Below are positions 6,268 through 18,144 of a stretch of DNA of 38,270 bases, in pieces (positions within the stretch are counted from its first letter, which is position 1; every line of letters begins with the position of its first letter). This DNA comes from a virus (Duplodnaviria > Heunggongvirae > Uroviricota > Caudoviricetes), in the IMG/VR virus record IMGVR_UViG_2609459790_000001, positions 1-38,270 of that record. One strand, given 5' to 3'. The position numbers and the translations under genes were made by a program. The notes under the pieces are model-generated. The model saw only the letters and a list, made by a program, of their open reading frames with translations. It was not told the DNA's origin and did not search any database.

Positions 6268-6336
6268 GGGTAACTCCTTATATTTGATTGCATAACGAAA
6301 ACGCCTCGAGTGAAGCGTTATTGGTATGCATATAAA

Positions 6337-6365
6337 AAGGCCCTCACACTGGAGGGCAAAGAAGA
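6337..6365 (-). terminator. Candidate intrinsic terminator in the leftward operon upstream of cIII (tL-like)
   Basis: Minus-strand hairpin GCCCUC-CAGUGU-GAGGGC followed by CUUUUUAUAU. Confidence 0.45.
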
Positions 6366-7076: not shown

Positions 7077-7209
7077 CACTTACCTCGCTGTCAGTTGTTT
7101 GGATTTCCGGTAGCCTGCTGCGTAAAGAGCTACGTTTGGCAGGCACACAGCACCACCTTCAACTTCCTTCTAACGCGTTCCTGCAAGCGAAATGGCTCTT
7201 GAAACACGT

Positions 7210-7743
7210 TTACTGGCTCCGTCCATGATTTTCATGAAAGCCATATAGTGCATTGGCTTCTTTCCTTGCTTGTTTGGCATCATCTAAAAGTTTGAATGAG
7301 CCTAGGTATTTTCGTTTTCCATCCACAGTTATCGATGCAACATAAAACCCATGCTCTTTTCTTGCTTCAACACCTGTAACTCCAGTTGATGAAGATGATT
7401 TTAAAGGCATGTTTTTCATATTCTCTTTGAAAGAAACGCTTCTTAAATTGGAGATTCTGTTGTCATCCTTAACGCCGTTTATGTGATCAATCACATCAGG
7501 CCAGTAGCCATGCACGTAAAGCCATGCAAGTCTGTGAGACTTAAATTTTTTACCTCCAATATTTATTCTCAGATAACCCTTGTTGTCAGGTGAGCCAGCC
7601 TTTTTACCTGGATACTTCTTGTTCCACGTCAAGGCAGCTCTGTTATCCGCAAACAAATGCTTTGCTCTCGGCTTCCAATAAAAGTCACCACTCACAGGAT
7701 TGTAATGAAGAATCTCCCTTACAGACGCTTGAGTAAGATCCAC
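7210..7743 (-). CDS. HNH endonuclease with AP2-type DNA-binding domain (homing-endonuclease-like), first gene of the PL operon
   Basis: 177 aa; motif YWPDVIDHINGVKDDNRISNLR (HNH_3 type) and a C-terminal AP2-like segment; GTG start with AGGAGG ribosome-binding site. Confidence 0.85.
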   Translation of the reverse strand: MDLTQASVREILHYNPVSGDFYWKPRAKHLFADNRAALTWNKKYPGKKAGSPDNKGYLRINIGGKKFKSHRLAWLYVHGYWPDVIDHINGVKDDNRISNLRSVSFKENMKNMPLKSSSSTGVTGVEARKEHGFYVASITVDGKRKYLGSFKLLDDAKQARKEANALYGFHENHGRSQ

Positions 7744-7759
7744 TTAAACCTCCTAACAA

Positions 7760-7880
7760 AAACACTTCAATAACCCTCCGGTTATGGAAATGTTCTTTTG
7801 TAGTGAGCAGCATTGCCGTTCATCCTGAACCCGCCGCGCTCCCGACGCATGGTTTAATGTCGCGCCGTTCGACATGGCTT
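7760..7880 (-). ncRNA. Candidate put-like cis-acting antitermination RNA element (putL-like), hypothesis only
   Basis: GC-rich structured leader between the PL operators and the first gene; shares CGAACGGC, GUCGGG and UCAGGAUGAAC-like blocks with the element downstream of cro; perfect 6-bp hairpin AUGUCG/CGACAU. Confidence 0.3.
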
Positions 7881-7884
7881 AACT

Positions 7885-7950
7885 ATATCCAAAGCTATTA
7901 TTTCTGTAAATAGCTATAGTTATAAAATAACTACTTTGGTTATTTAGTTG
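7885..7950. promoter_or_regulatory. Left operator/promoter region (OL/PL) with palindromic repressor sites
   Basis: Palindromes AAAGCTATTATTTCTGTAAATAGCTAT and AAATAACTACTTTGGTTATTT between cI and the leftward operon; the AGCTAT half-site recurs at OR. Confidence 0.55.
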
Positions 7951-8006
7951 TTGATATCTAATGTAATTTATTTTTCTTGAGTGTGATGTTTGGTGTGTTT
8001 TGGGCA

Positions 8007-8033
8007 ATAAAAAACCCGCAAAAAGCGGGTTTG
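8007..8033 (-). terminator. Intrinsic terminator downstream of cI (hairpin usable in both directions)
   Basis: AAAAAACCCGCAAAAAGCGGGTTTGTT: stem CCCGC/GCGGG flanked by an A-run and a T-run. Confidence 0.7.
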
Positions 8034-8049
8034 TTGTGGTGTGATGAGG

Positions 8050-8781
8050 TTAGTAATCAACTACAGACCACCAGAAAATTCTTCCGATGATCTCAATGTC
8101 ACTTAGATTCTTTTCTTCTTGTGGGTATTCCAGTGAGTTAAAGCTTCTAATGCTTACCTTGTCAGGCCCTGTTCGAAAGAGAATCTTAATGCGTTTCCAA
8201 CCGTTCTCGTTAATGGCGTAAATCTTTCCGTCAACTATTTTCTTATCGTTGGTGTTAACAGCAACTGTTGTTCCATCAGGAATGTTTGGCTCCATGCTGT
8301 TGCCACGAGCCGGAAAACAAACAACCCCGCTTCCATCACTGTTCGCGCCAACTCTGCGAAGGGTTGATTTGGAAAAGCGCAACATAAAGCCGTTGTGATC
8401 TTCATCAATCACCCGACCATCCCCGCATGCAAACTCAATATCTTTAAGGTAAGGAATTTCAACTTCATCACCTCTTAAAGGCGTTCCTCCATCCCATGGG
8501 TCCAAACACCCCCACGTGCTTTCATGAGGAATAGAAGATTTTGGATCATAAGGTTCAACTCCCTCATCACGCATTGGCCCAGTTCCATCGGAAAGCCATT
8601 CCGTACGAACTCCAAGCACTTTTGATATTTCAAAAAGTTTGCGCGTATTGCGTGTTTTTCCAGACGTAAGTTTCCAGACGCTTGGCTGAGACATGCCAAC
8701 AGCATTGCCAAGAGAAGCCTGAGTAAACCCAGCCTGATCCATCGCGTATGTAAGCCTTTGAGAAAAAGTATCTAGTTTCAT
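8050..8781 (-). CDS. cI: CI-type prophage repressor (HTH domain plus LexA-like S24 autopeptidase domain)
   Basis: 243 aa; N-terminal HTH (QASLGNAVGMSQPSVWKL), C-terminal S24 motifs GNSMEP and downstream Lys; divergent from cro. Confidence 0.9.
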   Translation of the reverse strand: MKLDTFSQRLTYAMDQAGFTQASLGNAVGMSQPSVWKLTSGKTRNTRKLFEISKVLGVRTEWLSDGTGPMRDEGVEPYDPKSSIPHESTWGCLDPWDGGTPLRGDEVEIPYLKDIEFACGDGRVIDEDHNGFMLRFSKSTLRRVGANSDGSGVVCFPARGNSMEPNIPDGTTVAVNTNDKKIVDGKIYAINENGWKRIKILFRTGPDKVSIRSFNSLEYPQEEKNLSDIEIIGRIFWWSVVDY

Positions 8782-8784
8782 TCG

Positions 8785-8860
8785 GACAACCTATAGCTAC
8801 AGCTATTATTAGTCAAATATCTAAAGCTATTTACTTTCTGAATAGCTTTGGCTATTATTC
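8785..8860. promoter_or_regulatory. Right operator/promoter region (OR, PRM/PR)
   Basis: Palindromes ATAGCTACAGCTAT and AAAGCTATT-N9-AATAGCTTT in the cI-cro intergenic region. Confidence 0.6.
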
Positions 8861-8889
8861 TTGTTGTGAATTCAGTAGGAGTTATTTTT

Positions 8890-9120
8890 ATGGTCAACAA
8901 GGCTATTAAAGCGGCTATTGACTCAGTAGGAAGTCAGCAAAAGTTAGCTGATGCCTGCGGTGTTAAGCAGCCGTCTGTATGGGCTTGGTTGCATGGGAAG
9001 AAAAGGGTATCCGCTAAAAATGCCAAGCGCATTGAAATGGCTACCAATGGAAGCATCCCTGCATACCTGATTCGCCCTGATTTATCCGATTTGTTCCCCA
9101 ATCCGAACAAAGCAGCTTAA
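8890..9120 (+). CDS. cro: Cro-like repressor (small HTH protein)
   Basis: 76 aa from the ATG at 8890 preceded by AGGAG; the track ORF begins further upstream at 8848 without a ribosome-binding site; HTH segment QQKLADACGVKQPSVWAW. Confidence 0.8.
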   Translation: MVNKAIKAAIDSVGSQQKLADACGVKQPSVWAWLHGKKRVSAKNAKRIEMATNGSIPAYLIRPDLSDLFPNPNKAA

Positions 9121-9129
9121 TAAAGCAAA

Positions 9130-9200
9130 TTTTTATACCGAACGGCCCGGTATACGGTCGGGTGCCCGGCGTGGTCAAGGATGACTGTCAATGGTGCACG
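9130..9200 (+). ncRNA. Candidate put-like cis-acting antitermination RNA element (putR-like), hypothesis only
   Basis: GC-rich structured segment CCGAACGGCCCGGTATACGGTCGGGTGCCCGGCGTGGTCAAGGATGAC between cro and cII, related to the PL-side element. Confidence 0.3.
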
Positions 9201-9239
9201 ATAAAAACCCAAATTATTTACCTATGGAGATAGTAAGAA

Positions 9240-9536
9240 ATGACACAAACAAGTTACAGCAAGCCAACACAGCGAGAAATTGATCGCGCTGAAACTGATT
9301 TACTCATCAACCTGTCAACGCTTACCCAGCGCGGTCTGGCAAAGATGATTGGCTGTCATGAATCGAAGATAAGCAGAACGGACTGGAGATTTATTGCTTC
9401 GGTCTTGTGTGCTTTCGGAATGGCATCAGACATCAGTCCGATTAGCAGGGCTTTTAAGTATGCGCTTGATGAAATCACAAAGAAAAAATCCCCGGCCGCC
9501 ACCGAGGATTTTAAGCAAATTGATATGCAATTCTGA
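9240..9536 (+). CDS. cII: CII-like transcriptional activator
   Basis: 98 aa; SKISRTDW and C-terminal [18 protein letters not shown] parallel lambda CII SQISRWKRDW and KKRPAATERSEQIQMEF. Confidence 0.85.
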
Positions 9537-9568
9537 GGGAATTACTGGATCAATCCACAGGAGTCATT

Positions 9569-9715
9569 ATGACAAAACAACTCAGTCCTTACCAGGACAA
9601 AATTCACAAACACATACTACGTGATCGCTTCCTGTCCAGCTTCAAGCAGCCTGGTCGATTCCGGGCTGAGTTGGAAAAAGTGAAGCTGATGCAGAAGGAG
9701 AAAGGTCATGAGTAA
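9569..9715 (+). CDS. Hypothetical small protein between cII and O
   Basis: 48 aa ORF not in the track ([21 protein letters not shown]...); AGGAG ribosome-binding site; stop overlaps the O start (ATGA). Confidence 0.45.
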
Positions 9716-12061: not shown

Positions 12062-12091
12062 AGGCCTGCTGGTAATCGCAGGCCTTTTTAT
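12062..12091 (+). terminator. Intrinsic terminator before the nin region (tR2-like)
   Basis: AGGCCTGC-TGGTAATC-GCAGGCCT followed by TTTTTATTT. Confidence 0.7.
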
Positions 12092-12109
12092 TTGGGGGAG
12101 AGGGAAGTC

Positions 12110-17850: not shown

Positions 17851-18144
17851 CCATGTAGGCATTACAAAGCCTATCTACGGGTGGGCTTGATAATGAAACC
17901 GGAATTTATTCTGGGTAACCAGTTACGGCAGTACAGCGAAACAACCCAAGCCAGTAAGTGGGGAAATAACACTGGCAGCCACTGAAAGATGAACCTCCAG
18001 CCTTATGGCAAAAAAGATTCTTTGTGGTGGCGGACTGATGGAAAGACATCGGATAGAATCAAGCAGTGGCTAGGGTAGCTCCCGAAAAGCGGAATCGTCA
18101 CCGCCAGCCACTGAATCTATGACGAACAACTAGACGAGGTTGAT

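What the first reader, a model, noticed from the sequence alone, without database searches (positions are those of the whole stretch)
9121..9239. Second copy of the GC-rich structured element between cro and cII (putR-like position)
The cro-cII spacer contains CCGAACGGCCCGGTATACGGTCGGGTGCCCGGCGTGGTCAAGGATGAC, related to the PL-side element, where lambda would carry nutR/tR1. It could alternatively be an unusual nutR/tR1 region for a divergent N protein, but no such protein is evident.
Basis: partly seen in the sequence, partly recalled or inferred. Interest (0 to 1): 0.5.

Follow-up and report, generated by a model that had tools for sequence, protein, structure and literature searches.

The report
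HK022-type putR antiterminator RNA site

Summary
The quoted sequence lies at 9138-9185 in the cro (8890-9120) / cII (9240-9536) spacer. From about 9138 to the cII start the spacer is base-for-base identical to HK022, O276 and APC_JM3.2. O276 and HK75 annotate this stretch as "putR antiterminator RNA".

The partner element at 7874-7805 (- strand), directly after PL, is HK022 putL with compensatory flips in its 5' duplex. A put pattern and a covariance model each find these two copies and no third.

Forty distinct put sequences from phages and viral contigs fit the published cryo-EM putL structure: 93% of cells paired, against 25-52% in slid controls, and 11 pairs changed on both sides. All 23 scored pairs form in both window elements.

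There is no boxA/boxB, no Nun, no hairpin plus U-run in the spacer, and only a stop-interrupted 3' relic of a P22-type N gene.

Most likely function: RNA made about 271 nt after the PR start folds, binds the RNA polymerase beta' zinc-binding domain, and carries the polymerase through downstream terminators such as 12062-12085. Function in this phage is inferred, not shown.

Verdict: already known, an HK022-type put pair in a P22-like mosaic phage. Low interest.

The parts
9136..9199 (+). putR antiterminator RNA site. Mapped onto the cryo-EM putL model: 5' duplex UACCG 9136-9140 with CGGUA 9148-9152; AA 9141-9142; stem I lower helix CGGCC 9143-9147 with GGUCG 9156-9160; 3-nt linker UAC 9153-9155; junction G 9161 (equivalent to G35); stem II 9162-9199.
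   Evidence: 100% identical to HK022 and O276 putR. O276 and HK75 annotate the equivalent of 9143-9199 and 9139-9200 as putR. Covariance model hit of 72.2 bits, E 8e-14. All 23 model pairs are standard pairs.
7805..7874 (-). putL antiterminator RNA site, the partner copy, starting within about 1-2 nt of the predicted PL transcription start.
   Evidence: Near-identical to HK022, O276 and HK75 putL. A3-U19 and A5-U17 are both flipped to U-A. 96.9 bits.
8830..8858 (+). PR promoter-like site (TTTACT-17-TATTAT) within the OR operators (8793-8806, 8817-8830, 8842-8855). The predicted start near 8865 places putR about 271 nt downstream.
   Evidence: The published distance for HK022 putR is about 270 nt (PMC9378689).
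7882..7910 (-). PL promoter-like site (TTTACA-17-TATAGT) overlapping the OL operators (7885-7898, 7910-7923).
8890..9120 (+). cro-type repressor gene upstream of putR. Its immunity type differs from HK022.
   Evidence: Pfam P22_Cro / YdaS / HTH_3. HK022 homology begins only at about 9131-9138.
9200..9239 (+). Rest of the spacer, including the cII ribosome-binding site GGAG at 9226-9229. By homology to the HK75 annotation, the leftward cII-dependent promoter pE (pRE) lies at about 9230-9258 on the - strand, so its transcript would read antisense through putR.
   Evidence: Identical to HK022 and HK75. HK75 pE feature. The coordinate transfer is my inference.
9240..9536 (+). cII gene, the first gene downstream of putR.
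   Evidence: Pfam Phage_CII, E 5e-33. 99.6% identical to HK022.
12062..12095 (+). Strong intrinsic terminator after the DnaB-like replication gene. It is the likely first major target of putR-modified polymerase.
   Evidence: 8-bp stem with 6 GC pairs followed by TTTTTATTT. Identical to the terminator annotated in HK75.
6300..6357 (-). Two tandem intrinsic terminators in the PL operon upstream of cIII and kil. They are the likely targets of putL-modified polymerase.
   Evidence: Homologous to the two terminators annotated in HK75. cIII and kil identified.
7080..7226 (-). Relic of the 3' half of a P22-type N (gene 24) antiterminator gene. It has no N-terminal arginine-rich motif and an in-frame TAG at 7172-7170, so no functional N is encoded.
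   Evidence: Translation. The UPF_BP1 homologue matches phrog_271 'anti-termination protein N-like' at positions 113-170 of 176. The DNA matches the 3' end of P22 gene 24 and other N genes.

Best explanation
Window 9136-9199 is the putR (polymerase-utilisation, right) site of an HK022-type RNA-based antitermination system.

Proposed mechanism: transcription from PR passes through cro and, about 271 nt from the start, produces a roughly 64-nt RNA. This RNA folds co-transcriptionally into a V-shaped two-stem structure. Stem I consists of a short 5' duplex interleaved with a CGGCC/GGUCG helix. Stem II is a long, irregular helix with G.U, G.A and C.A pairs and a bulged U.

[quoted passage not shown] It stays bound, holds the enzyme in the non-swivelled active state and hinders hairpin formation. 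The polymerase therefore reads through downstream intrinsic and Rho-dependent terminators, for example 12062-12085, into the replication, nin and late-regulator genes, with no phage protein needed. putL (7874-7805) does the same for the PL operon, whose terminators lie at 6357-6300.

Shown here: sequence identity to HK022 putR, the shared covarying structure, the position, the paired arrangement with putL, and the absence of N, nut and Nun. Taken from the literature on HK022: RNA polymerase binding and the mechanism of antitermination. Inferred: that the element works the same way in this phage.
For: (1) The window is identical to HK022 and O276 from about 9138 to the cII ATG, and 99.6% identical over 9131-9600. 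O276 and HK75 annotate this stretch as putR.

(2) The partner putL sits directly after PL, with compensatory A-U to U-A flips in the 5' duplex that cryo-EM revealed (PMC9378689).

(3) On 40 distinct put sequences, the cryo-EM-derived structure gives 93.3% paired cells, against 24.6-52.4% when the 3' partners are slid. Eleven pairs change on both sides (138 cells), and 0 of 500 shuffles reach the observed covariation score. RNAalifold independently recovers stem I and stem II.

(4) Every one of the 23 pairs is a standard pair in both window elements. The residues whose mutation inactivates putL are present in putR: A9 as A9142, G35 as G9161, G45 as G9171 and A64 as A9191.

(5) The geometry matches the literature. 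putL starts at the PL start and putR lies about 270 nt after the PR start.

(6) No Nun. No N apart from a truncated relic carrying a stop codon. No terminator-like site in the spacer.

(7) The downstream terminators are identical or homologous to those annotated in HK75.
Against: No functional assay exists for this phage.

Thermodynamic folding alone gives no signal. The minimum-free-energy z-scores are +0.28 for putR and +0.52 for putL, and the minimum-free-energy stem I of putR differs from the model.

The solved structure is of putL, not putR. putR has only a 3-nt linker where putL has the 10-nt strand that forms the triplex and carries U28, so stem I of putR cannot be identical in detail.

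Within putR-type sequences, the two outer pairs of the 5' duplex vary without compensation (A.A, C.A, U.U).

The covariation set was gathered with a pattern that fixes 20 positions, the sequences are related to one another, and the window's own elements are in the model.
Confidence: 0.94

Rival explanations
1. It is a divergent nutR site (boxA plus boxB hairpin), perhaps combined with tR1, that recruits a phage N-type protein and host Nus factors.
For: The position between cro and cII is the position of lambda nutR/tR1. A sequence related to P22-type N genes exists in the PL operon at 7226-7080.
Against: The N-like sequence is only the 3' half of the gene. It lacks the arginine-rich RNA-binding N-terminus and has an in-frame TAG.

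No boxA-like sequence with up to 1 mismatch lies in 7750-9300 on the transcribed strands.

The element is identical to HK022 putR. According to the literature read here (PMC9378689), HK022 uses no dedicated trans-acting protein factor for antitermination.
Confidence: 0.02
2. It is simply a transcription terminator or attenuator (tR1) between cro and cII.
For: It has GC-rich stems, and lambda has the Rho-dependent tR1 in this interval.
Against: Stem II is followed by GAUAAAAACCC, so there is no U-run. The terminator scan finds nothing on the + strand in 9121-9239.

The conserved non-canonical features and the covariation match put, not a plain hairpin.

A Rho-dependent site downstream of putR cannot be excluded with these tools, but it would be a target of putR rather than an alternative to it.
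Confidence: 0.02
3. It acts at the DNA level, for example as an extra repressor operator like HK022 O_FR or as part of the pRE promoter, and the similarity to the PL-side element reflects shared protein-binding sites.
For: In HK022 and HK75 an operator (O_FR) abuts the 5' edge of putR, and pE overlaps the cII start.
Against: The window's operator motif ATAGC-N4-GCTAT occurs at OL and OR only, and not in 9121-9239 with up to 2 mismatches. The O_FR sequence lies in the part of the spacer that is not shared with HK022. Compensatory changes across the family point to selection on RNA pairing.
Confidence: 0.02

Closest known systems
HK022 putR (King et al. 1996 and Banik-Maiti et al. 1997, as cited in PMC9378689; annotated in O276 MH547045 and HK75 HM173637)
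   Same: Identical sequence across the whole element and on to the cII start. Same position (between cro and cII, about 270 nt after the PR start), same partner putL, and same downstream cII, replication genes and terminator.
   Different: The flanking immunity region (cI, cro, operators) is of another specificity, and there is no O_FR operator at its 5' edge. The phage has a P22-like virion module and no nun gene.
HK022 putL (cryo-EM structure PDB 7XUE, PMC9378689)
   Same: Same architecture: 5' duplex, GAACGGC core, CGGCN/NGUCG helix, junction G, and an irregular stem II with GGCG...CAAU. Identity is 73% over aligned positions.
   Different: putR has a 3-nt linker in place of the 10-nt strand U20-G29, which forms the minor-groove triplex and carries U28. 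It has one extra base in the stem II apical region. It lies 270 nt from its promoter rather than at the transcription start.
HK639-type single putL-like RNAs and other put relatives (HK639 HM208537 annotation; King et al. 2011, as cited in PMC9378689)
   Same: Same family. The core is conserved and stem II covaries (ACCAUA/UAUGG, ACGCCC/GGUGCGU and others).
   Different: In those phages only a left-operon put element was found here. The window has the two-site HK022 arrangement.
Lambda / P22 N-nut antitermination
   Same: Same genomic positions and the same biological role: processive antitermination of the PL and PR operons.
   Different: N-nut needs an N protein, boxA/boxB and Nus factors. 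Here there is no functional N and no nut site.
RfaH/ops and other processive antiterminators that resist RNA polymerase swivelling
   Same: According to PMC9378689, put RNA, like RfaH, suppresses backtrack and hairpin pauses by holding the polymerase non-swivelled.
   Different: RfaH is a protein recruited by a DNA element. put is a cis-acting nascent RNA.

Membership tests
HK022-type put antiterminator RNA | Sequence homology to an experimentally defined put site | tested here: met
   100% identity to HK022 and O276 putR across 9138-9245. Annotated as putR in O276 and HK75.
HK022-type put antiterminator RNA | Two-stem (V-shaped) secondary structure of about 65-70 nt, with stem I, a junction G and an irregular stem II | tested here: met
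   All 23 pairs of the cryo-EM-based model form in the window's putR and putL. Family-wide, 93.3% of cells are paired and 11 pairs change on both sides, well above the slid controls. RNAalifold recovers both stems.
HK022-type put antiterminator RNA | Residues whose mutation inactivates putL (A9, G35, G45, A64; U28) | tested here: met
   A9142, G9161, G9171 and A9191 are present. The equivalent of U28 is uncertain, because putR has only the 3-nt linker UAC, exactly as in HK022 putR.
HK022-type put antiterminator RNA | Location in the early operons: putL at the PL start, putR about 270 nt after the PR start, upstream of terminators | tested here: met
   Promoter-like sites and distances. Terminators at 12062-12085 and 6357-6300 are shared with HK75.
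HK022-type put antiterminator RNA | No phage-encoded antitermination protein for the early operons | tested here: met
   No Pfam or PHROG N family among the PL-operon ORFs. Only a stop-interrupted N 3' relic.
HK022-type put antiterminator RNA | Terminator read-through in cis that depends on the RNA polymerase beta' zinc-binding domain | not testable with these tools
   Needs a reporter or in vitro transcription assay. Known for HK022 from the literature (PMC9378689).
Lambda-type nut site | boxA (CGCTCTTA-like) followed by a boxB hairpin, plus a phage N protein with an arginine-rich motif | tested here: not met
   No boxA-like match in the early leader regions. N is truncated and interrupted.
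Intrinsic terminator (tR1-like) | GC-rich hairpin immediately followed by a U-run | tested here: not met
   No such site on the + strand in 9121-9239. The sequence after stem II is GAUAAAAACCC.
Any Rfam 15 family | Covariance-model match | tested here: not met
   No hit over 9136-9199 or 7805-7874, even at E up to 10. Put RNAs appear not to be represented in Rfam 15.

The most novel reading that the evidence does not exclude
The window records how an RNA-only antitermination system displaced a protein-based one. A putL + HNH-endonuclease cassette sits exactly where the nutL site and the 5' half of a P22-type N gene would be, and leaves a decaying 3' N relic (7226-7080). The same junction occurs in Salmonella phage UPF_BP1. 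The HNH (homing-type) endonuclease may have driven the spread of the putL cassette into N-type phages. putR would have arrived separately, with the HK022-type cII-replication segment whose left junction lies within about 5 nt of putR.
Probability: 0.2. Interest if true: 0.35.

Novelty: already known. Interest (0 to 1): 0.1.

Why it matters
The element itself adds nothing new. putR of HK022 has been studied genetically and biochemically since the 1990s, and its partner putL was solved by cryo-EM in 2022.

The practical value lies in annotation. Put sites are left unannotated in most phage and prophage records, including the HK022 reference genome, and they have no match in Rfam 15. Phages like this one therefore look as if they lack early antitermination. 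In the collections searched here, put elements occur in P22-like and lambda-like phages and prophages of several Enterobacterales genera, and putR occurs in 42 of 5426 complete E. coli genomes. A curated covariance model would fill that gap.

Tried and rejected
- Single-sequence minimum-free-energy folding of putR, putL, the whole spacer and the antisense strand: no z-score differed from shuffles, and the minimum-free-energy stem I was not the published one. I did not use this as evidence either way.
- Rfam at gathering threshold and at E up to 10: nothing over the elements.
- boxA search, Nun tblastn and Pfam/PHROG scans for N: negative apart from the N relic.
- Operator motif search for an O_FR-like site in the spacer: none.
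Most of the rows were chance matches in GC-rich Actinomycetota and similar genomes. Of the first 100 loci, only 8 contained a model-confirmed put element (10 elements in all), and the six of these whose organism I saw are Enterobacterales (Kluyvera, Siccibacter, Enterobacter x2, Winslowiella, Pantoea). The pattern alone is not specific there.
- King et al. 2011 and Komissarova et al. 2008 could not be read, because they are not held.

Full report
**Context**

The window is a lambdoid early region inside a P22-like phage genome; its best overall matches are IME10, Dewey and Louie. A cI-type repressor gene (8050-8781, -; Peptidase_S24 + HTH) faces a cro-type gene (8890-9120, +). These are followed by cII (9240-9536; Phage_CII, E 5e-33), a DUF2740 ORF, an O-like gene and a DnaB-like gene. 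The finding covers the whole cro-cII spacer, 9121-9239.

**Observation**

- The quoted string is at 9138-9185.
- A structurally consistent alignment with the PL-side element (7874-7805, - strand) gives 46 identities in 63 aligned positions.
- A put-specific pattern matches the window exactly twice, at these two places, with none in 100 shuffles.
- A covariance model built from 40 distinct family members scores them at 96.9 and 72.2 bits. Both sequences were in the training alignment, so these scores are expected. The next hit is 9.2 bits, so there are two copies and no third.

**Identity**

- Megablast of 8800-9600 shows that 9131-9600 is 99.6% identical to HK022.
- Aligning the spacers shows that every base from about 9138 to the cII ATG is the same in the window, HK022 and O276. 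HK75 differs at two positions upstream of the cII ATG.
- O276 annotates the equivalent of 9143-9199 as "putR antiterminator RNA; HK022 putR". HK75 annotates the equivalent of 9139-9200 as the "putR site".
- The left-hand element aligns with the annotated putL of HK022, O276 and HK75. It differs by two flips, A3-U19 to U-A and A5-U17 to U-A. Both lie in the 5' duplex A3-G7/C15-U19, which the 2022 cryo-EM structure first revealed (PMC9378689).
- Homology to HK022 stops just 5' of putR. The cro, cI and operator sequences are of a different immunity type.

**Structure**

I transferred the published putL numbering onto the alignment and scored this structure on 40 distinct put sequences. They came from 11 phage records and about 120 viral contigs. 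The structure consists of:

- the 5' duplex 3-7/15-19;
- the helix 10-14/30-34, which is interleaved with the 5' duplex and so is topologically a pseudoknot;
- stem II, 36-72, with U68 bulged.

Results:

- 93.3% of cells form standard pairs, against 24.6-52.4% when the 3' partners are slid by 1-3 columns.
- 11 of 23 pairs change on both sides (138 cells).
- No shuffle out of 500 reaches the observed covariation score.

The covarying columns (5' duplex, pair 14-30, lower stem II, pair 48-58) were not fixed by the search pattern. RNAalifold, without prior knowledge, recovers stem I (10-14/30-34) and stem II. In the window, all 23 pairs are standard pairs in both putR and putL.

Caveats:

- The sequences are related to one another, and 20 positions were fixed by the collecting pattern.
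- Single-sequence minimum-free-energy folding shows no unusual stability, with z-scores of +0.28 and +0.52.
- Within the putR type, the two outer pairs of the 5' duplex vary without compensation.
- putR has only a 3-nt linker where putL has the 10-nt triplex/U28 strand, so its stem I must differ in detail from the solved putL structure.

**Position and targets**

- Promoter-like sites coincide with clusters of the operator motif ATAGC-N4-GCTAT: PR at 8830-8858 and PL at 7910-7882.
- This puts putL within 1-2 nt of the PL start and putR about 271 nt after the PR start. The literature gives the same layout: putL just downstream of PL, putR about 270 nt downstream of the PR start.
- Downstream of putR, the first strong intrinsic terminator is 12062-12085, identical to one annotated in HK75.
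- Downstream of putL, two tandem terminators at 6357-6340 and 6319-6300 precede cIII and kil. They are homologous to those annotated in HK75.

**Rivals**

- nut/N: there is no boxA-like sequence in the leaders and no Nun. PL-operon ORFs match no N family. The only N-like sequence, 7226-7080, is the 3' half of a P22-type gene 24. It has an in-frame TAG and no arginine-rich N-terminus.
- Plain terminator: no hairpin plus U-run in the spacer.
- DNA-level operator: no operator motif in the spacer.
- Rfam: no match at all, even at E up to 10. Put RNAs seem to be absent from that library, which explains why automatic annotation misses them.

**Mechanism**

This part comes from the literature on HK022 and is inferred for this phage. 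The nascent put RNA folds on the polymerase that made it. It binds the beta' zinc-binding domain and the beta flap-tip at the RNA exit channel and remains associated. It counteracts swivelling and hairpin formation, so the polymerase ignores pauses and both intrinsic and Rho-dependent terminators for many kilobases, without any phage protein (PMC9378689; PMC8632103). The sequence is identical to HK022 putR and the host is E. coli, so I take the same function as very likely (0.94).

**Distribution**

- putR-like sequences at 96% identity or more occur in 16 phage records from Escherichia, Salmonella and Erwinia.
- putL-like sequences occur in 21 phage records, which also include Enterobacter and Pantoea phages.
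- putR occurs in 42 of 5426 complete E. coli genomes.
- Model-confirmed copies in species-representative genomes were all in Enterobacterales where I saw the organism name (six of eight loci).
- P22-like phages with put sites already exist in GenBank (UPF_BP1, S9-5, APC_JM3.2), so even the mosaic context is not new.

**Verdict**

The element is the known HK022 putR, so novelty is "already known" and interest is low. The most interesting by-product is the putL-HNH-N-relic junction. It hints at how an RNA-based antiterminator replaced an N-type system.

Noticed in passing
window 7226-7080 (- strand): Relic of the 3' half of a P22-type N (gene 24) antiterminator gene: MDGASKRVSRAISLAGTR*KEVEGGAVCLPNVALYAAGYRKSKQLTAR*. 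It has an in-frame TAG at 7172-7170 and no arginine-rich N-terminus. Its start overlaps the end of the HNH ORF.
   Followed up: partly
window 7743-7210 (- strand): An HNH endonuclease gene (Pfam HNH_3; phrog_99, E 2e-66) occupies the slot directly downstream of putL, where HK022 has nun. Salmonella phage UPF_BP1 has the same putL-HNH-N-relic arrangement, but APC_JM3.2 does not.
   Followed up: partly
window 18063-18125 (+ strand): The only Rfam hit above gathering score in the window is int-alpA RNA (RF02996; 41.8 bits against a threshold of 35.8). It is unrelated to the finding.
   Followed up: no
window 9136-9199 and 7805-7874: Neither put element matches any Rfam 15 family, even at E up to 10. 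The HK022 reference records carry no put annotation. Put RNAs are therefore a known but poorly catalogued family.
   Followed up: yes
window 9136-9160; alignment A4 columns 1-32: By the published numbering, stem I of put is topologically an H-type pseudoknot (3-7/15-19 interleaved with 10-14/30-34). In putR-type sequences the crossing loop is only 3 nt, and the two outer pairs of the 5' duplex vary without compensation. This suggests a shorter duplex and no triplex in putR.
   Followed up: partly
window about 6440-6360 (- strand): A conserved inverted repeat, GTGTATTCA-N10-TGAATACAC, and the sequence around it just upstream of the two tL terminators are nearly identical to the nun-cIII intergenic region of HK75. 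Function not examined.
   Followed up: no
window 9121-9239 compared with NZ_CP063485.1: The exact 119-bp spacer occurs in three complete E. coli genomes. One copy lies on a 39,096-bp record that RefSeq files as a plasmid of strain EM03-18-08. That record is about the size of this window, so it may be the phage genome assembled as a separate replicon.
   Followed up: no
window 9230-9258 (- strand), by homology to HK75: The cII-dependent leftward promoter pE/pRE overlaps the cII start, so establishment transcripts would run antisense through putR and cro. The antisense strand shows no notable fold (z = -0.15).
   Followed up: partly
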